From contig CAZZHG010000005.1 of assembly GCA_964653655.1 (NCBI GenBank), forward strand, positions 2,631 through 66,630: a stretch of DNA of 64,000 nucleotides, written 5' to 3'. This stretch comes from an uncultured Pseudobdellovibrionaceae bacterium (lineage in GTDB: Bacteria > Bdellovibrionota > FAC87 > UBA2466). Below are positions 199-45,391 of this stretch, one piece after another. How positions within the stretch are numbered: position 1 is the first letter of the stretch; each line of letters begins with the position of its first letter. The notes under the pieces were generated by a model. The model saw only the letters and a list, made by a program, of their open reading frames with translations, had not been told where the DNA came from and made no database searches. Made by a program: the position numbers and the translations under genes.

Positions 199-3100
199 AT
201 GCGCCTCGCCCGACTCTTTCTCTCTCTAATGATGTCAGTCGCGCCGCTTTCCGCGGACGAAGCGCACGATTCCGCGGCGACCGACGCCGGCTCGACCGAG
301 ATTACGACGGCCTATCCTTACGATCTCCAGCAGTGCCGCTTTCTGAAACGCGACAAGGGTTACTACTTTTTGGAGAAGGATTGGCACTTCCGCCAGACAG
401 GGCTCGATCTGTTTCGCAAGCATCCGCTCGTGAAGCGGGCGGATTACAGCAAGATTCAGCTGGGAATACTCGACACCCCGATTCGGGCGTCGGAAAACCC
501 GAAGGCCGGAAAACGGGTGAAGGCAGCTTCGAACGCCACCGCCGACGACCAGGACACCTTCCATGGAACTCACGTCGCGGGCATCGCCGCTTCGAAAACG
601 GTCGGCGTAAATCCGCGTTTGCCGCTAATTTCTCATCCGCTCGATTTTGAATGGACGATCTTCTCTCCGAGCATCGTAAACGCCTTGATCGCCGCCGGTA
701 AGGATCCCAAGACAAGAGTGGTTAACCTTTCCATCCACGCGCTCGAACACCCGCTCATCAAAGAGCAGGTGCTGGAGCTGACGAAGAAAGGCGTTTGGGT
801 CGTCTACGCCGCGGGAAACAACGGCGAAGTAAACGTCGGAGACAGCGCGCTTCTCAGAGAGCTGTCGCAGGTTCCCGAGCTCTTCTCCATCGGCGCGCTC
901 AACTACTTCGGAACCCCCGCATCATTCAGTAATCACGGCTCGAGCGTCGATTTCTACGCGCCGGGCGAGAGGATTCAGTCTCTTAACGCCGACTACGTTC
1001 CCGGAGAGAAAAAATCCAAAGCGAAGGCGGTGGCGGACGGAACGAGCATGGCGGCGCCTTACGCTTCGGCCGTACTTGCCACCATGCGGGCGATCGAGCC
1101 CTCTCTCACCGCGGAAGAAGCCTTGGAGCTCATCAAGGAGACGGCGATTCTCAGAGGCACGAAGGAAGTCGTGTCTCAGATTAACCCGTACCTCATCGTT
1201 TCCTATCTGGAGGCAATCCGTCTCGCCCGCCTGAAGCAGGAATGCAAGAAGCTGGTCTCCTGTTTTCCCGCGGCGAAGCGCGCCATTCAGGAGAAGGCGG
1301 AAGCTCTAGCCACGGCCCTCAAATCGCCGGAAAACAACAACTGCGACGAATGGGAGAAATTCCAAAATCAGCTTCGCCAAGGCTACTTCCTTACTCGCGG
1401 AAGAGATCCCCGTTTCAGCGGACCGCTCGTTCGCCTCTCCCAAAATGCCCCCCGGGGAAAAGCTGCGGAATCCGTTCTGTACACTTCGGGCGTCGCTCAG
1501 GAGCGGGCGCTCCCGGAGTTCATGGCCGATCACGGCGGCCTACTCGCAAAGGAAGAGGGAGAAGCCTCGAAAGCTTTCTTCGACGGCCGGCCGGACAAGC
1601 TGACCAAGGATGAGCTGGAGGTATCGTTCTCCAATCTCGACGCCATCTGGAAACGTTGTGAGAACTTCTTCTTCGTCCAAACCGACAATGGATTCTGCCA
1701 CGAGATGTTCCACGTCATGCCGAAGTCGTTGAAGCTCGCCTTGGCGAAAAGACTCGTCGATGCCAAGAAGCCGCTTTCGTCGATAAACCTGCTTCGAACC
1801 AACTTCCGGCTCTACGAGGACCCGGCGTCGCTACCCCTGCACAATGCGCTAGTGCCGCTCGCCATCGAGGGAATGGAGAAAAAGGTCCTCACTTCGACCG
1901 AAGCCGAGCACATGCTCGAAGAACTTCCGGAGCTTGCCGAGCAGGCCAGAAAGCAGGTGCTCCCCCTCCTGGAATCCTGCCTGAAAAGCCCCATCGCCGA
2001 GGAGCACAAGTACTGCCGCCGGTACATTGCCCGGGCCAAACTCTATCTGACCGCCGACTCCACGGCGGCGGACGACGAGAATGCCGCCAAGGAAATCGCC
2101 AAGGAATACGACATTGCCCTTCCCTACGCCGCTCTTCGAGTTCAAATCGAACGCGCCAGGGCCGGATTTTTCGACGAAGGAAAGATGGCGAACGTGTTGC
2201 TACGGCAACTCGCCGAGTGGAAGGAAATCGACGCGCCCTACACGAAGAAAGAGGAGAACCACGAGTTCGGAGCGCGCAAGGAGCTCTTCAACGACTGGCT
2301 GGAAGTGGCGAAGAGCCCCTTTTACGGCAAGCTAGTGGGCCAGATTCTCGCCAACCCGGCGAACCTGAAAGTCCTGGACCAGTTGCTTCACGGCAAAACG
2401 GCATTCCCCGATTCGGCGTGGGAAGGTTTCTTCCCGCTCGCCCAGCTGGAGCCGAAGGACCGCAAAGCCCTGCTGGAGGGGATCGCCGAACACTGGACCC
2501 TCAACGATTCAACGAGGGCGAAGCGCTACTTCACCCTGCTACAAGCGAACTCGGATCTACCGGAGGCGGCAAGCGTCCTCGAAGGTCTCAAGAAGAAGGA
2601 TCAGCCTACTCCCTTTTGGAAGGCGGCTCGGCGAAGTTACCTGCAACATGCCGCCGAAACGGCGACCGGTCCGACACCCGCTCTCGCGCAGCTTCTGGAT
2701 GAAACGCCGAAGAGCGAGCATTGGCTGACCCTGGCGTACCTCGACAAGGATTCGGCCGCCAAGGACCCCGAGTTCCTGAAACGTCTGGCGAAGATCTCTG
2801 AAGGAGCTCCCGCCGATTCCCTGCTCGCCACGGAGCTACTCGAGTGGATGAGCGTAAGCCTTCTGGGACAGCCCAAGGTCGAGACCAGCAACGCCATCGC
2901 GCCCATTCTGATTCCTAAGCTCGCCGAACTTTTTCGGGCGAGGGGACGATGGAACGAGAGCGGCGCACTCATTCCGGGCATCGGAACGAGTCTAAATCGG
3001 CTGTCCGAACGCCGGCCCCATCGATTCGCCCAATCGATTTTCCAGTTCGAAAAAATGCTCGCGGACGAAAAGTGGCTGACGGCGGACGACACACCAGAGG

Positions 3101-3552
3101 CGGATGACGAGCGGAAACTGGAGTCCATCTATCGGCGAAAAGATCTGTTTCTGGCGTTGAACACACTGACCAGCTCCGTCCAGGGCGACGCCTATCTGCA
3201 AAGCCACCCGAAAATGCTCGAATGGATGGTGAAGACGGCAACCGATCCCGATACGGACGAGAAGCTGGAGAATGCGGCACTCAATCCGACGCTGACATTC
3301 GCGTTGAAAGACAAAATCCCCGAAAAGTTGGGACCGGCGACCCGGACTCCCAACTGGCTCCTCGAAGTCACCTGGCGGCAACCCAAAGCTACTCCCAAGA
3401 TAGTTCAACTTTACAAGGAGAGCCGCCGCCCCGAACTTCTGCAATCTCTTCAACAGGCCCTCCTGCTGTTTCCCGAAAGACTTAGTTACGACGTGAAAAG
3501 GGAAATCGAAGGGCTTCCCGTTAGCGATCCGCCGATCGGAGGGGGCCCATGA
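199..3552 (+). CDS. Secreted subtilisin-like serine peptidase (S8 family) with a roughly 750-aa C-terminal extension of unknown function.
   Basis: Signal peptide MRLARLFLSLMMSVAPLSA. The S8 catalytic triad motifs are present in order: D in LGILDTPIR, H in HGTHVAGIAAS, S in GTSMAAPYASAVLA. The long helical C-terminal region matches no family I recognise. Confidence 0.8.
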   Translation: MRLARLFLSLMMSVAPLSADEAHDSAATDAGSTEITTAYPYDLQQCRFLKRDKGYYFLEKDWHFRQTGLDLFRKHPLVKRADYSKIQLGILDTPIRASENPKAGKRVKAASNATADDQDTFHGTHVAGIAASKTVGVNPRLPLISHPLDFEWTIFSPSIVNALIAAGKDPKTRVVNLSIHALEHPLIKEQVLELTKKGVWVVYAAGNNGEVNVGDSALLRELSQVPELFSIGALNYFGTPASFSNHGSSVDFYAPGERIQSLNADYVPGEKKSKAKAVADGTSMAAPYASAVLATMRAIEPSLTAEEALELIKETAILRGTKEVVSQINPYLIVSYLEAIRLARLKQECKKLVSCFPAAKRAIQEKAEALATALKSPENNNCDEWEKFQNQLRQGYFLTRGRDPRFSGPLVRLSQNAPRGKAAESVLYTSGVAQERALPEFMADHGGLLAKEEGEASKAFFDGRPDKLTKDELEVSFSNLDAIWKRCENFFFVQTDNGFCHEMFHVMPKSLKLALAKRLVDAKKPLSSINLLRTNFRLYEDPASLPLHNALVPLAIEGMEKKVLTSTEAEHMLEELPELAEQARKQVLPLLESCLKSPIAEEHKYCRRYIARAKLYLTADSTAADDENAAKEIAKEYDIALPYAALRVQIERARAGFFDEGKMANVLLRQLAEWKEIDAPYTKKEENHEFGARKELFNDWLEVAKSPFYGKLVGQILANPANLKVLDQLLHGKTAFPDSAWEGFFPLAQLEPKDRKALLEGIAEHWTLNDSTRAKRYFTLLQANSDLPEAASVLEGLKKKDQPTPFWKAARRSYLQHAAETATGPTPALAQLLDETPKSEHWLTLAYLDKDSAAKDPEFLKRLAKISEGAPADSLLATELLEWMSVSLLGQPKVETSNAIAPILIPKLAELFRARGRWNESGALIPGIGTSLNRLSERRPHRFAQSIFQFEKMLADEKWLTADDTPEADDERKLESIYRRKDLFLALNTLTSSVQGDAYLQSHPKMLEWMVKTATDPDTDEKLENAALNPTLTFALKDKIPEKLGPATRTPNWLLEVTWRQPKATPKIVQLYKESRRPELLQSLQQALLLFPERLSYDVKREIEGLPVSDPPIGGGP

Positions 3553-40246: not shown

Positions 40247-42319
40247 ATGAGCCTTACGGTCTACCGGCGCAAAAGAAAGTTCGATCAAACGCCGGAGCCC
40301 AAGGCCGACAAGAAACCCAAGAAATCGAAGGCCCTTCGTTTCGTCGTGCAAAAGCACGCGGCCACCCGCACTCACTACGATTTTCGGCTCGAATTGGACG
40401 GCGCCCTGCTCAGCTGGGCCGTTCCGAAAGGCCCGACTCTAACCTCCGGGGATCCTCGGCTTGCCGTTCACGTCGAGGATCATCCGATCGACTACGGCGA
40501 TTTCGAGGGAGTCATCCCGAAAGGCAACTACGGCGCCGGCACCGTGATGGTCTGGGACGCGGGCACTTACGTCGAGCGCGGCTCCACCGCGCGGGCCGAC
40601 AGCGAAAAGGCGATGCGCGCCGGAATGGAAAAGGGGCACGTCACCTTCGTGCTCGAAGGCGAGAAACTTCGGGGCGAGTTTGCGCTCGTCAAAATCAAGA
40701 AGAAGGGCGCTCCTCCGAACGGCTGGCTTCTCATTAAGAAGCACGACGCCGAAGCTTCCCGCCAGGACGTGACCAAACAGGACCGCTCCTGCGTCACGGG
40801 CCGATCGATGGAAGAGATCGCAAAGGCCGCCGACAGCGTGTGGATTCCGGGAAAGGGCCGCGCGAAGCAAGCGCCGAAGCGAGCGCCCTTGAAGAAGCCG
40901 CCTCGTCCGGCACCGAAGAAAGCTCCCGTGAAGGCAGCGCTCCCCCATCGGGTCCGCCCGATGGAACCGGTCTTCGCTCCCACGGCACCCACCGGCGGCG
41001 ATTGGATTTTCGAGACCTTCGGTGCGGGCCCGCGGGCTCTCGCGGAGGTGGAAGCCGGACAAGTGCGCCTGCACTCCAGGTCGCTCCTTCCTTTCGAGAA
41101 AAAGTATCCGGCGATTGTCAGCGCTTTGAGAAAACTCGGAACCACCGTGGTTCTCGACGGGGAAATCGTCGGCTCCAACTATCTGATTTCCGACGTGCTC
41201 TATATCGACGGCAAGGACCTTCGCGAGACCGCGCTTTCGGAGAGAAAGAAGCGGCTCGAATCGCTCGCCTTGAAGGCGCCCCTCCAGCTTGCGGAGCTCT
41301 TCGAAAAGCCGCCCGAGGCCGCGACCTATGTCGCGAAGAAGTCTGATTCGACTTATCGAAGCGGGCTTTCCCGCGATTGGCTCCGGATCAAGGGTGGCGG
41401 CACGAAGGGCAGGCCCGAACCGAAAACCAGCGAGTACCCGCCCCTCACCCATCCGAACAAAGTGTTTTGGCCCAAAGAGAAGATCACGAAGGGCGACCTC
41501 GCCGAGTACTACAAGAGCGTCGCGGATGTGATGCTCCCCTACATGAAGGACCGCCCGCAGTCTCTCCATCGTCAGCCCGACGGCTTGAAGAACGAAGGGT
41601 TCTTCCACAAGGACATGTCGGGTTTTCTTCCGCGCCGGATGGAGACGGTCCGGATCTGGTCGGGCTCCTCCGACCGGACGCTCAACTACGTTCTGTGTCA
41701 GGACAAGTGGGCGCTGCTCTATCTCGTGAACCTGGGCTGCATCGAGTTCAACCCGTGGCTTTCCAAGCGCCCGAAGCTCGAGAACCCCGACCAGGTGGTC
41801 ATCGATCTCGACCCGGACGACAACTCCTACGACGAAGTAGTGGAGGTCGCCCTCGAAGTGAGAAGAGTCCTCACTTCCATCGGCGCCGAGAGCTTTTGCA
41901 AGACGTCCGGCGCGAGCGGCATGCACATCGTGATCCCGACGGGCGCGAAGTTCGATTTCGATACGGGCCGGCTCTTCGCCGAAGCCGTCTGCAATGTCGT
42001 GCAAAAGAAGTTTCCCAAGAACACGAGCGTCGAGCGGACTCCCGCCAAACGCCGCCACAAGATCTACCTCGACTTCCTGCAGAACCGCCGCGGCCAGACT
42101 CTCGCGGCCCCCTACTGCGTCCGGCCCCGTCCGAATGCGACCGTATCGGCGCCGTTAAAGTGGTCGGAAGTGAAGAAGGGACTCACGCCGGAAGCCTTCA
42201 CCATCGAGACGATGGCTCGACGCATCGAGCGTGTGGGAGACCTCTGGAAGGGCACCCTCAATACCGCCGTCGACATCGAGGCCTGCCACAAGAGATTGCG
42301 AAAAAATTTTCACATTTAA
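40247..42319 (+). CDS. ligD: LigD-like multidomain protein: N-terminal 3'-phosphoesterase domain, a shortened ligase-like middle domain lacking the catalytic Lys, and a C-terminal primase-polymerase (LigD-Pol) domain.
   Basis: PE domain: RFVVQKHAATRTHYDFRLELDGALLSWAVPKGP. The middle domain has WIFETFGAGPRALA where ligases have EPKxDGxRA, then VLDGEIV (motif III-like), then YVAKKSDSTYRSGLSRDWLRIK (motif IV/V-like with EG changed to TY). No OB domain follows. Pol domain: VIDLDPDD, KTSGASGMHIVIP, YLDFLQNRRGQT. Confidence 0.75.
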   Translation: MSLTVYRRKRKFDQTPEPKADKKPKKSKALRFVVQKHAATRTHYDFRLELDGALLSWAVPKGPTLTSGDPRLAVHVEDHPIDYGDFEGVIPKGNYGAGTVMVWDAGTYVERGSTARADSEKAMRAGMEKGHVTFVLEGEKLRGEFALVKIKKKGAPPNGWLLIKKHDAEASRQDVTKQDRSCVTGRSMEEIAKAADSVWIPGKGRAKQAPKRAPLKKPPRPAPKKAPVKAALPHRVRPMEPVFAPTAPTGGDWIFETFGAGPRALAEVEAGQVRLHSRSLLPFEKKYPAIVSALRKLGTTVVLDGEIVGSNYLISDVLYIDGKDLRETALSERKKRLESLALKAPLQLAELFEKPPEAATYVAKKSDSTYRSGLSRDWLRIKGGGTKGRPEPKTSEYPPLTHPNKVFWPKEKITKGDLAEYYKSVADVMLPYMKDRPQSLHRQPDGLKNEGFFHKDMSGFLPRRMETVRIWSGSSDRTLNYVLCQDKWALLYLVNLGCIEFNPWLSKRPKLENPDQVVIDLDPDDNSYDEVVEVALEVRRVLTSIGAESFCKTSGASGMHIVIPTGAKFDFDTGRLFAEAVCNVVQKKFPKNTSVERTPAKRRHKIYLDFLQNRRGQTLAAPYCVRPRPNATVSAPLKWSEVKKGLTPEAFTIETMARRIERVGDLWKGTLNTAVDIEACHKRLRKNFHI

Positions 42320-42368
42320 TTCGGCTTAATTCCCTCAAAACGCAGCGCTGCAAAAGCCGAAAAGTCAG

Positions 42369-43022
42369 GTGGAGGTCCTCGTTATGGCCAAGTCCACCGC
42401 AAAGGCGAAGGCGCCCAAGAAAGAAAAGAAAGCCGCCGCTCCGAAGAAGGAATTCTTCAAGACGCGAAAAACCCGCGAGCCGGAGCTCGAAGCGGGCGAC
42501 ACGATCACGCCGCCGGAAGAAATCCAGCAGGCCATCGACGCCTTCCGCGATGCCCAGGAGCAGATGAAGCACTTCGAGGGCGAAGCGACCGTGCAAAAGG
42601 ACGCCATCAACGACTTCGCGCTGAAGGAGTATTCGAAGCGCGTGACGAAGGGCAAAGGCCGGTCGTTCAAGTTGCTGGGCGATCAGAGCATGGTGACCTA
42701 CGTAGTAATGGACGCGAGCGCCGGTCTCACCGAGGAAGAAGTCGAGGCGTTCAAGGAGCAATGGGGCGAGGACGCGGCCGATGAGCTCATCACGCGCGAT
42801 CTGGCGAGCATCCGTTTCGACGGGGCGGTTTTGGAAGCGAATTACGAAGCGGTGGTCGAAGCCCTGCAAGTCCTGCCGAAAGACGTGCTCGAGAATCTCT
42901 TCAAGCCGATGCTCATGAAGGCCACCAAGGGGGCCGTCGAAAAGGCGAAGAACTTCGCGAAGAACGCCGACGAGCTTCAGGAATTAATTCGGCAACTTAA
43001 GATACGTAATTACATCCGCTAA
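42369..43022 (+). CDS. Lysine-rich hypothetical protein (histone-H1-like N-terminal tail), not Ku.
   Basis: MAKSTAKAKAPKKEKKAAAPKK is followed by an acidic helical domain. An RBS-like GGTGGAGG precedes the start. It sits between the LigD-like gene and the mini-ligase gene. Confidence 0.55.
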   Translation: MEVLVMAKSTAKAKAPKKEKKAAAPKKEFFKTRKTREPELEAGDTITPPEEIQQAIDAFRDAQEQMKHFEGEATVQKDAINDFALKEYSKRVTKGKGRSFKLLGDQSMVTYVVMDASAGLTEEEVEAFKEQWGEDAADELITRDLASIRFDGAVLEANYEAVVEALQVLPKDVLENLFKPMLMKATKGAVEKAKNFAKNADELQELIRQLKIRNYIR

Positions 43023-43067
43023 GTTGAGGTTGCCCACCGCCTCCGGGCTGCCTATCTTGGGCGGCTC

Positions 43068-43676
43068 ATGGGGTTTGGGGATCCGCGCAGTGTTTTGACC
43101 GCGACTATTTTTACCCGGCGCCCTCTCATGCCTTCTTCTCTTTTCATCAAAGCGATGCACCCGAAGTCGGAGATTAGCCCCGACGCCCAGTCCATCGAAC
43201 GGGTTTTGAAAATGGGTTGGGTGGGCCAGTTGAAGATCCATGGCCACCGCGCGCAGATTCACATTCCTTCCGATCCGAAGGAAAAGCCCATCGCCTACAA
43301 CCGCCAGGGCCGTAAGCACAAGCTCGCCTTGCCCCCTTCGATGGTGAAGGAGCTGTACCGGCTGTTCCGCCCCGAAAAGGGCTGGAACGTGATCGACGCC
43401 GAATGGCTCAAGCCCGAAGAGAAGCTCTACGTTTTCGATTTCCTGAAAAAGGACGGCGAAATTCAACGCCCCAAGACTTTCCCCGAGCGCTGGGCGCTAC
43501 TGCCCCGCGCGTTTCTGTCCCCGCACATTCAGGTGCTGCCGCTATTTAGGGACCTGCCCGCTTGTCTGAAGGCGATGGCCACTCCCGGCGACCACATCGA
43601 AGGCCTCGTCTTCAAGTCGACGAGCTCGACGGGCTTCTCGGATACGTCGATCGTCCGCTGCCGCCGCAAAAAGTGA
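43068..43676 (+). CDS. Short ATP-dependent ligase-like nucleotidyltransferase domain protein (motif I is KIHGHR instead of KxDGxR).
   Basis: WVGQLKIHGHRAQIHI (motif I-like, Lys retained, Asp replaced by His). AYNRQGRKH, IDAEWL (motif III-like), LYVFDFLKKDGEIQRPKTFPERWALL, and EGLVFK (motif IV) are in ligase order. It is only about 180-200 aa, the start is uncertain, and its stop codon lies inside the left direct repeat of the adjacent mobile element. Confidence 0.5.
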   Translation: MGFGDPRSVLTATIFTRRPLMPSSLFIKAMHPKSEISPDAQSIERVLKMGWVGQLKIHGHRAQIHIPSDPKEKPIAYNRQGRKHKLALPPSMVKELYRLFRPEKGWNVIDAEWLKPEEKLYVFDFLKKDGEIQRPKTFPERWALLPRAFLSPHIQVLPLFRDLPACLKAMATPGDHIEGLVFKSTSSTGFSDTSIVRCRRKK

Positions 43677-43692
43677 AGCGTTCCGCATTGAA

Positions 43693-43722
43693 CCAAAAGG
43701 TGCGGCCTCACTTCTGGCTTTC
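43693..43722. repeat. Left inverted repeat of the Y1-transposase element.
   Basis: CCAAAAGGTGCGGCCTCACTTCTGGCTTTC is the exact reverse complement of 44433-44462. Confidence 0.8.
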
Positions 43723-44379
43723 GTCCTCTCGAAATTGAATAGGTATTTCCCGAGTCCGGCGAACTCGACCGAAGACGAACTTACGACGATAGAGCGCCTT
43801 GCGTAGAACCTCAACGTGCTCGGCATCGTAGGGCTCATCCAACCAGTCGCACCATCGGTAGATTCCTTTACGAGCAAGATTGAGCGAAAGAGATTTTTCA
43901 AATGGGTGAGACGAAAGATGAACTTCATAGGGCCGATCCAGTAGAAATCCACCAGCGGTGCTGAAACGATAGTCCGAGACGCGTGTTACGATTCCTTGCC
44001 GAACTGGATTTTGATAGATGTATCGAAAAACGTGGTGGTATTGAAACCAGTTATCGATAAGCGTCCACTTGTAGGGACCCCCGAAGACATGATTTATCCG
44101 ATCGGCTCGGGAGTTGATTTCATCACTAACTCCCTTCAAAAGGCGGCACATCACAGCATCAATGCCTATCGCGGGTGCGCTTGCAAGAATGTGATAATGA
44201 TTCGACATCAGAACGAAGGCGTGAACCTGTAGCCCCCACTTCTCGATTACCCAATTCAACTGCCCTACAAAGACGTTCCATACTTCTTGCGGCGGTAGAT
44301 AGAACCACTCGCGATTGTTAGAACGCCCGTAAAGGTGGTACGGGAGGCTTGTGCTTCGAATCAGACGTCTCCGAGCCAT
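43708..44379 (-). CDS. Y1 HuH tyrosine transposase (IS200-like / REP-associated tyrosine transposase family).
   Basis: The HuH motif VLMSNHYHILAS and a C-terminal catalytic Tyr context YIYQNPVRQGIV are present. At 223 aa it is larger than classical IS200 TnpA. Confidence 0.7.
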   Translation of the reverse strand: MARRRLIRSTSLPYHLYGRSNNREWFYLPPQEVWNVFVGQLNWVIEKWGLQVHAFVLMSNHYHILASAPAIGIDAVMCRLLKGVSDEINSRADRINHVFGGPYKWTLIDNWFQYHHVFRYIYQNPVRQGIVTRVSDYRFSTAGGFLLDRPYEVHLSSHPFEKSLSLNLARKGIYRWCDWLDEPYDAEHVEVLRKALYRRKFVFGRVRRTREIPIQFREDESQK

Positions 44380-44432
44380 GGGGAGAACAGATACACTCTC
44401 TGTAAGTAAACGCTAGAAGGTATGGGGGGCGT

Positions 44433-44462
44433 GAAAGCCAGAAGTGAGGCCGCACCTTTTGG
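44433..44462. repeat. Right inverted repeat of the Y1-transposase element.
   Basis: GAAAGCCAGAAGTGAGGCCGCACCTTTTGG is the exact reverse complement of 43693-43722. Confidence 0.8.
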
Positions 44463-44539
44463 CTGCGCCGCAAAAAGTGAAGCGTTCCGCATAATCTCTC
44501 TTTCAAGACCCGCCTCGCTCATTCCGAAAAATATAGAGT

Positions 44540-45391
44540 ATGGGAAAGCCTCGTGTCGGCATTTCCGGTTGGACCTTTCCGGCGTGGCGCGGAACGTTCT
44601 ACCCGAAAGACCTCGTTCAAAAGAAAGAGCTGGAGTACGCAAGCCGCCAGCTCACCTCCATCGAAATCAACGGCACTTTCTATTCCCTTCAGCGGCCGGC
44701 GACGTTTCAGTCCTGGTACGATCAAACTCCCGACGATTTTCAATTCGCGGTAAAGGCGCCTCAGTTCATTACGCACATCCTGCGCCTCAAGGAGCCGGCC
44801 GAGCCGCTCGCCAACTTTTTCGCTTCGGGTCTGCTCAACCTGCGCGAAAAGCTCGGACCCATCCTTTGGCAATTTCCGCCGAACGTGATGCTCAAAGACG
44901 ATCGCTTCGAAAAGTTTTTGAAGCTGCTTCCGTGGGACGCGAAATCGGCATCGAAGCTTGCGAAGAAGCACGGCGAGAAAGTGGAAGGCCGCGCGGTAAC
45001 CAAAGTGGAAGGACAATTCCCGGTTCGCCACGCCTTCGAGTTCCGCCACAAGAGCTTTCTGAACGAAGACTTCCTCGCGACTCTGCGCTCTCACAACGTC
45101 GCTTTCGTCTTTGCCCACGAGGGCGGTGAAAAAACTCCCTACACGGAAGAGCCCACCGCGGACTTCATCTACGCCAGACTCCACGGCGAGGGGAAACCCT
45201 ATGCGAAGGGTTACCCCGATCGCGAAATCGCAAAATGGACCAAGAAAGTAGCGTCCTGGTCCAAATCGGGCCTCGATTGTTACGTTTATTTCAGCAACGA
45301 AGCCAAGCTCCACTCTCCTGCCGGGGCCGCTAAGCTGCTGAGAGCGCTCGGACTGGCCCCCGCTCTCTCCAAAGGCAAGAAGGCCGCCTAA
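44540..45391 (+). CDS. DUF72 (YecE-like) family protein.
   Basis: N-terminal GISGWTFPAWRGTFYP is characteristic of DUF72/UPF0759 proteins. Total length 283 aa. Confidence 0.65.
   Translation: MGKPRVGISGWTFPAWRGTFYPKDLVQKKELEYASRQLTSIEINGTFYSLQRPATFQSWYDQTPDDFQFAVKAPQFITHILRLKEPAEPLANFFASGLLNLREKLGPILWQFPPNVMLKDDRFEKFLKLLPWDAKSASKLAKKHGEKVEGRAVTKVEGQFPVRHAFEFRHKSFLNEDFLATLRSHNVAFVFAHEGGEKTPYTEEPTADFIYARLHGEGKPYAKGYPDREIAKWTKKVASWSKSGLDCYVYFSNEAKLHSPAGAAKLLRALGLAPALSKGKKAA

What the first reader, a model, noticed from the sequence alone, without database searches (positions are those of the whole stretch)
43663..44492. Y1-transposase element with an unusual DR-IR ... IR-DR architecture inserted at the 3' end of the ligase-like gene
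A 223-aa HuH/Y1 transposase (IS200/RAYT-like) is bracketed by perfect 30-bp inverted repeats (43693-43722 and 44433-44462). Outside those lie about 26-30-bp direct repeats, GCCGCAAAAAGTGAAGCGTTCCGCAT (43663-43688 and 44467-44492). The left direct repeat contains the stop codon of the upstream ligase-like ORF. IS200/IS605 elements usually insert without target duplications. A 26-30-bp duplication, or a REP/BIME-like arrangement, is therefore noteworthy.
Basis: seen in the sequence. Interest (0 to 1): 0.55.

Follow-up and report, generated by a model that had tools for sequence, protein, structure and literature searches.

The report
RAYT–REP cassette inserted with 27-bp duplication
A small HUH/tyrosine "REP-associated" transposase gene, bracketed by its own two inverted palindromic repeats, sits inside an otherwise conserved DNA-repair gene cluster and is flanked by a perfect 27-bp copy of the host gene's end; this is a rare sign that such cassettes, usually thought immobile, can be inserted as a unit.

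Summary
There is a perfect 30-nt inverted repeat (43693-43722 / 44433-44462) and, outside it, a perfect 27-nt direct repeat (43662-43688 / 44466-44492). Neither occurs elsewhere in the window.

The 223-aa protein is a RAYT/TnpA_REP-like Y1 enzyme, not an IS200/IS605 transposase. The inverted repeats are its cognate REP hairpins. Relatives share the same end type, (CC)AAAAGGT..ACTTTTGG: 63 of 82 related loci have a flanking inverted repeat, and the 35 arms aligned all carry this motif. In the MAG that carries a 58%-identical relative, the identical 15-nt core is dispersed at 35 sites on 22 contigs, as singlets, tandem doublets and REPIN-like doublets.

The direct repeat is not a REP. Its left copy is the native 3' end of the ligase-like gene (RCRRKK-stop plus 12 nt). 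Three relatives have ligase-like and DUF72 genes adjacent with no cassette, and a reconstructed single-copy site is colinear with the nearest relative. The cassette is therefore an insertion accompanied by a 27-nt target duplication (31/32 nt with one indel).

No other family locus shows this, and resident relatives keep one fixed locus. The mechanism is unresolved. Candidates are RAYT-made staggered nicks, or host repair or template switching.

It is a new member of a known kind with one unusual, single-instance footprint.

The parts
43068..43676 (+). Host ligase-like ORF (202 aa from the first ATG; the NCBI call is 182 aa). Its last 15 nt lie in the left direct repeat.
   Evidence: weak DNA_ligase_A_M and RNA_ligase matches; 24 homologs all end ...SIVRCR(K/R)(R/K)K, so RCRRKK-stop is the native end.
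43662..43688 (+). Left copy of the 27-nt direct repeat T (CGCCGCAAAAAGTGAAGCGTTCCGCAT). It comprises the codons RRKK, the stop TGA and 12 nt of 3' UTR. It is extendable to 43657 if one indel is allowed.
43689..43692 (+). 4-nt spacer TGAA between T and the left REP. Its origin is unknown: it may be an element end, donor flank or filler.
43693..43722 (+). Left inverted-repeat arm, i.e. the REP copy downstream of the RAYT gene. The REP proper is 43693-43717 (CCAAAAGGTGCGGCCTCACTTCTGG). It contains the RAYT stop codon.
   Evidence: Family-wide conservation of the end type. Hairpin pairing 77.8% against 35-53% in slid controls.
43708..44379 (-). RAYT/TnpA_REP-like HUH-Y1 gene, 223 aa. The HUH motif (NHYHIL) and the catalytic Tyr motif (RYIYQNPVR) are intact.
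   Evidence: Y1_Tnp. (REP_Tyr_transpos, 55 bits, below the cutoff of 80). (invariant H61, H63, Y120, N124, P125). (only PDB hit is 4ER8, TnpA_REP, E=2.4e-10).
44433..44462 (+). Right inverted-repeat arm, i.e. the REP copy upstream of the RAYT gene. The REP proper is 44438-44462 (CCAGAAGTGAGGCCGCACCTTTTGG).
44463..44465 (+). 3-nt spacer CTG between the right REP and T. It may instead be the start of an extended, indel-containing duplication GCTGC(C)GCCGC....
44466..44492 (+). Right copy of the 27-nt direct repeat T. It is followed by the native 47-nt spacer before DUF72.
   Evidence: The junction is also present in the ENA contig L124.
44540..45391 (+). Host DUF72 gene. In relatives it directly follows the ligase-like gene.
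   Evidence: DUF72, 231 bits. (gene order in L122, the P0122 contig and L123).

Best explanation
The feature is a REPtron/TIRtron-like cassette: a RAYT (TnpA_REP-like HUH-Y1) gene plus its two cognate REP hairpins in inverted orientation. The cassette spans about 43689-44465. It has been inserted as one unit into the short spacer at the 3' end of a ligase-like gene, inside a conserved LigD / 213-217-aa / ligase-like / DUF72 cluster.

The 30-nt inverted repeats are the protein's recognition sites. Each arm is an imperfect palindrome that can form a bulged hairpin in single-stranded DNA. The 27-nt direct repeats are not part of the element. They are a duplication of the target made at insertion, and this keeps the ligase ORF intact.

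Inferred mechanism: both 3' ends of the cassette were defined a few nt outside the REP feet, one REP being in the active orientation on each strand. These ends were joined to nicks in the two target strands 27-31 nt apart, and gap filling then duplicated the interval.

What is shown: the identity of the parts, the host origin of the direct repeat, the insertion status and the intact catalytic motifs. What is inferred: that the RAYT itself made the cuts, and the geometry of the joins.
For: Enzyme class: Y1_Tnp and REP_Tyr_transpos matches. The family profile hits only E. coli TnpA_REP 4ER8. The HUH and Y-x3-NP motifs are invariant in 28 homologs.

The inverted repeats are cognate REPs. Relatives at 56-58% identity in three other contexts (L001, L002, L043) carry the same GGTGCGGCCTCACTT core, or in L043 a close variant of it, in the same inverted layout. 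63 of 82 related loci have a flanking inverted repeat (score at least 18); the 35 arms aligned carry (CC)AAAAGGT[AG]N..[CT]AC[TC]TTTTGG. Hairpin pairing is 77.8% against 35-53% in slid controls, with compensatory changes. The exact core occurs 35 times on 22 contigs of the one MAG that carries the L001 relative, as singlets, tandem doublets and inverted doublets, against 17 single chance hits elsewhere.

The direct repeat is host sequence. All 24 ligase homologs end RCR(K/R)(R/K)K.

It is an insertion. L122, the P0122 contig and L123 have ligase-like and DUF72 genes adjacent, 31-45 nt apart, with no Y1 gene. With a single T, the window is colinear with L123: 74 vs 70 nt between anchors, with flanks 83-85% identical.

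It is recent: both repeat pairs are 100% identical.

It is not an assembly chimera at the right junction.
Against: This is one instance only. No other of 82 family loci has a non-REP direct repeat outside the REPs. 19 of 20 dispersed REP clusters in the JTS-AC389 MAG have no flanking repeat longer than 8 nt. Resident relatives occupy one fixed locus across 19-24 contigs.

HUH/Y1 enzymes are not known to make target duplications (PMC2817692), and REPtrons are said not to move as units (PMC6006769).

The 3-4 nt spacers and the possible 1-nt indel are not what a clean staggered-cut duplication gives. No common cleavage motif is evident at the four junctions.

The T sequence itself is not conserved in the nearest empty site, L123 (56% identity over the T-plus-spacer interval), so the pre-insertion sequence is inferred rather than seen.

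The rest of the source genome could not be searched.
Confidence: 0.6

Rival explanations
1. The cassette was inserted by host processes rather than by its own enzyme. One route is capture of a REP-bounded DNA fragment at a staggered double-strand break, repaired by Ku/LigD end joining. Another is replication template switching (MMBIR-like) that left the host after T, copied the cassette and re-entered the host 27-31 nt upstream. Either route would produce the duplication and the short junction fillers.
For: The event is unique in the family. The 3-4 nt non-matching spacers at both junctions and a possible 1-nt indel are typical of end joining or template switching. REP hairpins are plausible stall or switch points, which would explain why the fragment ends at the REPs. 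A LigD gene lies 1.3 kb upstream.
Against: Both ends of the inserted DNA fall within 3-4 nt of the REP feet and are symmetrical, which is more easily explained by REP-specific cutting. No donor sequence is available to test for junction microhomology.
Confidence: 0.25
2. This is att-like, site-specific or homology-driven integration. A circular form of the cassette that already carried one copy of T recombined with the chromosomal T. That would leave T on both sides, as integrative elements do when they target the 3' end of a gene.
For: The direct repeat covers the last 15 nt of an ORF, its stop and 12 nt more, so the gene is preserved. That is the classic layout of 3'-end-targeting integrative elements. 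The partial extra similarity GCTG beyond an indel resembles imperfect att arms.
Against: There is no tyrosine or serine recombinase in the 0.8-kb insert. A circle would have had to acquire T from the same locus beforehand. The nearest relative's site does not contain T. No other family member shows flanking host repeats.
Confidence: 0.07
3. The direct repeats are themselves degenerate REP copies. The whole feature would then be a BIME-like cluster (REP-like, REP ... REP, REP-like) rather than a target duplication.
For: T contains AAAAGTGAAGC against the REP core AGAAGTGAGGC. The motif A[AG]AAGTGA[AG]GC occurs in the window only at the two REPs and the two T copies. The core-to-core spacing of 32 nt on the right side falls within the tandem-doublet spacings of 23-46 nt seen in relatives.
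Against: An unbiased local-alignment test gives p of about 0.06-0.1. The motif was defined after seeing the match. The first 15 nt of the left T encode the conserved C-terminus of the ligase-like protein. The T - REP-L orientation (+,-) is not seen among the inverted doublets of JTS-AC389, all of which are (-,+).
Confidence: 0.05
4. It is an ordinary IS200/IS605-family insertion sequence, or alternatively an assembly artefact.
For: Pfam Y1_Tnp is the only Pfam hit. The source is a metagenome-assembled contig.
Against: The ends are inverted, not direct subterminal hairpins. The family profile finds TnpA_REP but no IS608 or ISDra2 TnpA at E<0.01. Relatives are single-locus residents with dispersed REPs. 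The right junction is present in a separate ENA contig. The repeats (27-30 nt) are shorter than usual final assembly k-mers.
Confidence: 0.03

Closest known systems
REPtron: RAYT / TnpA_REP gene flanked by REPs/REPINs (E. coli TnpA_REP, PDB 4ER8; Nunvar 2010 PMC2817692; Bertels & Rainey 2011; Quentin 2018 PMC6006769)
   Same: The HUH-Y1 protein is closest to TnpA_REP. The gene is flanked by two imperfect palindromes in inverted orientation. The same palindrome is dispersed as singlets, tandem doublets and REPIN-like doublets in a relative's genome. Relatives sit at one stable locus.
   Different: The REP has no canonical 5' GT[AG]G foot. Here there is a conserved AAAAG-GT[AG]N with a bulged G. 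The protein is 223 aa against 165 aa and scores below NCBIfam's RAYT cutoff (55 < 80). This copy is flanked by a 27-nt host duplication and interrupts a conserved gene cluster, so it looks inserted as a unit. REPtrons are stated not to do that.
TIRtron / TIRYT (Di Nocera 2013, PMC3733652)
   Same: A RAYT-like gene bracketed by long terminal inverted repeats that are not GTAG REPs. The inverted-repeat families are only moderately abundant and occur as dimers or clusters.
   Different: The signatures and HTH domains that define the TIRYT groups were not tested or not found here (only Y1_Tnp). The main text of that paper holds no occurrence of 'duplication' or 'direct repeat', so it does not describe flanking target duplications.
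IS200/IS605 insertion sequences (IS608, ISDra2)
   Same: HUH/Tyr chemistry on single-stranded DNA, and recognition of hairpins at the element ends.
   Different: Those elements have direct-oriented subterminal hairpins, no inverted repeats and no target duplication. They insert 3' of a 4-5-nt target and are multicopy (established knowledge; PMC2817692). Here the ends are inverted and a 27-nt duplication is present.
DDE-type insertion sequences and MITEs (terminal inverted repeats plus target-site duplication)
   Same: The overall layout: direct repeat - inverted repeat ... inverted repeat - direct repeat.
   Different: No DDE transposase is encoded. The duplication (27-32 nt) is far longer than the usual 2-14 bp. 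Spacers separate the direct and inverted repeats.
Integrative elements that target and re-create the 3' end of a gene (att core repeats)
   Same: The direct repeat spans the end of an ORF including its stop codon, so the gene is preserved.
   Different: No tyrosine or serine recombinase is present, the insert is only 0.8 kb, and no att-like conservation is seen in relatives.

Membership tests
RAYT / REPtron | HUH motif and catalytic Tyr (Y-x3-N-P) present | tested here: met
   NHYHIL and RYIYQNPVR are present. H61, H63, Y120, N124 and P125 are invariant in 28 homologs.
RAYT / REPtron | Sequence closer to TnpA_REP than to IS200/IS605 TnpA | tested here: met
   The profile of alignment A2 searched against the PDB gives a single hit, 4ER8 TnpA_REP, at E=2.4e-10.
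RAYT / REPtron | Passes the curated NCBIfam equivalog model REP_Tyr_transpos (NF047646) | tested here: not met
   55.3 bits against a cutoff of 80. It is a divergent relative, not an equivalog of the curated RAYTs.
RAYT / REPtron | [quoted passage not shown] | tested here: met
   30-nt perfect inverted repeat. L001, L002 and L043 carry the same core or a close variant in the same layout, and 63 of 82 related loci have a flanking inverted repeat.
RAYT / REPtron | REP is an imperfect palindrome able to form a hairpin | tested here: met
   On 33 family REPs, 77.8% of cells are paired against 35-53% in slid controls. 5 of 9 pairs show changes on both sides. Folding of the single window copy alone is not better than shuffles.
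RAYT / REPtron | Canonical 5' GT[AG]G tetranucleotide at the REP foot | tested here: inconclusive
   GGT is invariant and is followed by A or G, then a variable base (GTGC here; GTAC, GTAA, GTAG in relatives). Whether this plays the role of GTAG is unknown.
RAYT / REPtron | Cognate REPs dispersed in many copies in the host genome | not testable with these tools
   The source genome is not in the searchable collections, and no extra copy occurs in the 64 kb window. In the genome of a 58%-identical relative the exact pattern occurs 35 times on 22 contigs, and 42 copies of the 15-nt core are found with up to 2 mismatches.
RAYT / REPtron | Single, stably located gene copy (does not transpose as a unit) | tested here: not met
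   Relatives P0033 and P0034 each keep one context. This copy, however, interrupts a cluster that is contiguous in L122, L123 and the P0122 contig, and it carries a target duplication. Copy number in the source genome is unknown.
TIRtron / TIRYT | RAYT-like gene flanked by long terminal inverted repeats unrelated to GTAG REPs | tested here: met
   30-nt perfect terminal inverted repeats without a GTAG tag.
TIRtron / TIRYT | TIRYT-specific length and amino-acid signatures or HTH domain | not tested
   Only Y1_Tnp was found by Pfam. The published TIRYT alignment was not available for comparison.
IS200/IS605 | Direct-oriented subterminal hairpins, with no terminal inverted repeats | tested here: not met
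   The ends are a perfect inverted repeat.
IS200/IS605 | Insertion without target duplication | tested here: not met
   27-nt host duplication.
DDE insertion sequence / MITE | DDE transposase, in cis or in trans, and a short fixed-length target-site duplication abutting the terminal inverted repeats | tested here: not met
   The only ORF with a family match is Y1. The direct repeat is 27 nt and is separated from the inverted repeats by 3-4 nt.

The most novel reading that the evidence does not exclude
REP-bounded units of this Bdellovibrionota RAYT family, both whole RAYT cassettes and REPINs, can integrate into double-stranded targets by HUH-catalysed joining of both 3' ends to widely staggered nicks. 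This would leave long target duplications of about 27-45 nt, a transposition mode not described for any Y1/HUH enzyme. A possible second case is the REPIN in L032 (3017-3126), which is flanked by a direct repeat of about 42 nt whose 15-nt tail was found nowhere else in the 152 kb sampled.
Probability: 0.15. Interest if true: 0.7.

Novelty: new member of a known kind. Interest (0 to 1): 0.42.

Why it matters
RAYTs are regarded as domesticated, vertically inherited genes, and the REPtron is said not to move as a unit. How a RAYT and its first REPs arrive in a new genome, or at a new site, is unknown. This locus shows a complete RAYT+REP cassette that entered a conserved operon after divergence from relatives, with both junctions preserved and a long, perfect target duplication. 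If the footprint is enzymatic, it gives a testable handle on RAYT strand-transfer geometry. If it is a repair product, it shows how such cassettes can be seeded by illegitimate recombination. The 27-nt direct repeats next to 30-nt inverted repeats also predict frequent precise excision by slippage, which can be tested in reads.

Tried and rejected
1. Exact-protein look-ups of the RAYT and the ligase-like protein found nothing on record. The source contig beyond the window could not be reached, and the source genome was absent from the genome-contig scan.

2. Single-strand folding of the four end regions is not better than shuffles (z from -0.6 to +0.5). Support for the hairpin comes only from the family alignment.

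3. REP-likeness of the direct repeat is not significant in an unbiased test (p of about 0.06-0.1). The striking motif count is post hoc.

4. Low GC (50% against 58-60%) and low GC3 (0.51 against 0.70-0.78) of the cassette looked like evidence of recent foreign origin. I rejected this because the resident, syntenic relative in L001 shows the same deficit (GC3 0.55 against 0.72-0.76).

5. The 202-aa gene next to the L002 relative is not a ligase homolog, so that locus is not shared.

6. There is no Rfam family, no tRNA and no excess of promoter or terminator matches in the region.

7. There are no close relatives on plasmids (32% identity or less) and none on phages.

8. An 8-nt repeat, TTAGCCGA, flanks the L001 cassette. 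It was considered as a possible target duplication but overlaps the REP end, so it was left as undecidable.
Full report
**Observation.** The repeat finder reports a 30-nt, 100% complementary inverted repeat at 43693-43722 / 44433-44462. It also reports a 27-nt, 100% identical direct repeat at 43662-43688 / 44466-44492, spaced 804 nt apart. With up to three mismatches, each sequence occurs only at these two places in the 64 kb window, and none is expected from shuffles.

Between the repeats lies one ORF, 43708-44379 on the minus strand, of 223 aa. Its TGA stop codon lies inside the left inverted-repeat arm. The direct and inverted repeats are separated by TGAA on the left and CTG on the right. 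If a 1-nt indel is allowed, the duplication extends to 32 vs 31 nt (GCTGC[C]GCCGC...), in which case the right copy abuts the right arm directly. A separate ENA metagenome contig (L124, NODE_28819) carries the identical right junction, running from inside the Y1 gene into DUF72. At least that junction is therefore not peculiar to one assembly.

**The protein.** It matches Pfam Y1_Tnp just above threshold (24.7 against 23 bits). It matches NCBIfam's REP-associated tyrosine transposase model below threshold (55 against 80 bits).

A database search found 125 homologs. The nearest non-self hit is 58% identical, and the named sources are Bdellovibrionota, Pseudobdellovibrionaceae, Bacteriovorax and Halobacteriovoraceae. 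Several are labelled by JGI as 'REP element-mobilizing transposase RayT'.

In an alignment of 28 homologs, the HUH histidines (H61, H63) and the Y120-x3-N124-P125 motif are invariant. A profile of that alignment hits only one solved structure, E. coli TnpA_REP (4ER8, E=2.4e-10), and no IS608 or ISDra2 TnpA at E below 0.01. The enzyme is therefore a divergent RAYT-like HUH-Y1 protein with intact catalytic residues.

**The inverted repeats are cognate REPs.**
- Two relatives at 57-58% identity, from unrelated genomic contexts (L001, L002), are flanked by the same core. GGTGCGGCCTCACTT lies upstream and AAGTGAGGCCGCACC downstream, in one to three tandem copies.
- A metagenome scan gave 80 more loci. 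With L001 and L002 that makes 82, and 63 of them have an inverted repeat flanking the gene (score of at least 18). Most of the rest are truncated contigs or have fully palindromic ends.
- Anchored on an invariant GGT, the 35 arms aligned (34 relatives plus the window) read (CC)AAAAGGT[AG]N(6-8)[CT]AC[TC]TTTTGG.
- On 33 such arms, a bulged-hairpin model has 77.8% of cells paired, against 35-53% when the partner is slid. Changes on both sides occur at 5 of 9 pairs; for example, pair 12-19 is A-T in 16 sequences and G-C in 4.
- A scan of 185,579 species-representative genomes for RAAGTGAGGCCGCACCWWW found 39 stretches. Of these, 22 contigs with 35 matches all belong to one MAG, Bdellovibrionota JTS-AC389, which is the genome that carries the L001 relative. 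The other 17 are single hits in unrelated taxa.
- In that MAG the element occurs as singlets, as tandem doublets (spacing 26-46 nt) and as inverted doublets, always in (-,+) order. That is the same orientation in which the two REPs bracket the RAYT gene.

[quoted passage not shown] The only difference is a non-canonical foot in place of GTAG, which also brings it close to the 'TIRtrons' of Di Nocera 2013.

**The direct repeat is host DNA.** The left copy encodes the last four residues and the stop of the ligase-like ORF (CGC CGC AAA AAG TGA), plus 12 nt. All 24 aligned homologs end ...SIVRCR(K/R)(R/K)K, so this end is native.

In three relatives, the ligase-like gene is followed directly by DUF72, 31-45 nt downstream, within the same LigD / 213-aa / ligase-like / DUF72 order and with no Y1 gene:
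- L122, 70% amino-acid identity;
- the P0122 contig, 72% amino-acid identity;
- L123, in the same 90% protein cluster, with 83-85% nucleotide identity in the flanks.

Removing the cassette and one copy of T makes the window colinear with L123: 74 vs 70 nt lie between the conserved CGCTGCCGCCG anchor and the DUF72 start. The cassette is thus an insertion accompanied by a duplication of 27 (31-32) nt of target. Both repeat pairs are perfect, which argues for a recent event.

One caveat applies. T itself is not conserved in L123 (56% identity over the T-plus-spacer interval). At the same spot L123 has a perfect palindrome, TCTTAAAAGGTAC-TTA-GTACCTTTTAAGA, overlapping its own altered stop codon. 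That palindrome resembles the AAAAGGTAC class of family REPs.

**How unusual it is.**
- None of the other 82 family loci has a non-REP direct repeat outside its REPs. The four direct repeats scoring 20 or more (L042, L044, L057, L119) are REP copies themselves.
- Around the dispersed REPs of JTS-AC389, 19 of 20 clusters have no flanking repeat longer than 8 nt, which is the chance level.
- Two relatives, seen on 19 and 24 contigs from many samples, each sit in a single context. L001 and L043 (67% identical) share a position next to dnaE. This fits the view that RAYTs are stable residents.

**Mechanism.** The parts and the insertion status are shown; the chemistry is inferred.

The cassette's symmetry places one REP in the same orientation at the 3' end of each strand. 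Cleavage a few nt 3' of each hairpin would give two free 3'-OH ends. Joining these to 5'-phosphotyrosine-activated nicks in the two target strands 27-31 nt apart, followed by gap filling, would give the observed duplication. I rate the reading 'unit insertion with target duplication' at about 0.6. Within it, catalysis by the RAYT itself is no better than about 0.3, for two reasons. The event is unique, and the junctions carry 3-4 nt of unmatched sequence and share no cleavage motif.

The main rival (0.25) is host-mediated insertion, either by end-joining capture at a staggered break or by template switching at the REP hairpins. It explains the fillers and the uniqueness equally well.

An att-like integration of a T-bearing circle (0.07) lacks a recombinase and a source for T.

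The 'direct repeat is a degenerate REP' idea (0.05) rests on AAAAGTGAAGC against AGAAGTGAGGC. That similarity is not significant in an unbiased test, and the repeat overlaps conserved coding sequence.

A plain IS200/IS605 element or an artefact is unlikely (0.03).

Whatever the origin, 27-nt direct repeats held together by 30-nt inverted repeats should promote precise excision by slippage, which would restore the operon. That is a prediction from established knowledge of repeat-mediated deletion and was not tested here.

**Negative and corrected leads.**
- The low GC and GC3 of the cassette are not evidence of recent import, because the resident L001 gene shows the same deficit.
- There is no Rfam family, no tRNA and no excess of promoter or terminator matches.
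- There is no close plasmid or phage relative.
- The source genome beyond the window could not be reached. REP copy number in the source genome, and the uniqueness of T, therefore remain untested.

**Verdict.** The element is a new, divergent member of the known RAYT/REP (REPtron/TIRtron) kind. The flanking 27-nt duplication is a true target duplication marking a recent insertion of the whole cassette. That is unexpected for this class, but it rests on a single locus, with one ambiguous second candidate at L032.

Noticed in passing
L123:1985-2025 (JGI 3300004463, nearest empty site): At the position where the window has T and the cassette, L123 carries a perfect 13-bp-stem palindrome, TCTTAAAAGGTAC-TTA-GTACCTTTTAAGA. 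It overlaps an altered ligase C-terminus (RRRVLKGT-stop instead of RRKK-stop). It resembles the AAAAGGTAC..GTACCTTTT class of family REPs, so the same gene end may have been hit independently by a REP.
   Followed up: partly
L032:2955-3175 (MAG JTS-AC389): A REPIN-like inverted REP doublet (3017-3126) is flanked by a direct repeat of about 42 nt. The repeat is a hairpin, CCCAAAAGGGG-CCAA-CCCCCTTTTGGG, plus a tail, ACGGGTAGCTTGTTA. The hairpin loop is flipped between the two copies. The hairpin is itself a second dispersed repeat family (also in L008 and L041), but the tail occurs only in these two copies within the 152 kb sampled. This is a possible second case of the direct repeat - inverted repeat ... 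inverted repeat - direct repeat layout.
   Followed up: partly
L004:20-45, L029:270-300, L023:7515-7545, L008:985-1005 (MAG JTS-AC389): Many dispersed REPs carry a 10-12-nt tandem duplication of their own 3' end (GCACCTTTTGCC GCACCTTTTGCC). This suggests recurrent local cleavage and rejoining, or slippage, at the motif GCC|GCA.
   Followed up: no
L130 vs L125 (relative P0034): In one contig the whole RAYT cassette is inverted relative to its downstream neighbours. The breakpoints fall exactly in the 28-nt inverted REPs (blastn). This is either a flip of the cassette between its REPs or an assembly mis-join.
   Followed up: partly
window 40247-45391; L122; P0122 contig; L123: A gene cluster is conserved in these Bdellovibrionota relatives: LigD (phosphoesterase + ligase + primase-polymerase), a protein of about 215 aa of unknown function, a small 180-200-aa ATP-dependent-ligase-like protein, and DUF72. 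The small ligase-like protein always ends in a basic RCRKRK tail.
   Followed up: partly
L001:1901-2704 and L043:2656-3400: The L001 and L043 relatives (67% identical) both lie next to the 3' end of dnaE, sharing the flank GAAGTCGTGGGAG. In L001 the called ORF (267 aa) reads through the downstream REP in a frame different from the one that would stop at the REP's TGA. An 8-nt repeat, TTAGCCGA, flanks the L001 cassette but overlaps the REP end.
   Followed up: partly
window 43708-44379; L001:1901-2553; L002:2241-2921: The RAYT genes have markedly lower GC3 than their neighbours, even where they are long-term residents: window 0.51 against 0.70-0.78, L001 0.55 against 0.72-0.76. This looks like a family property rather than a mark of recent transfer.
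   Followed up: yes
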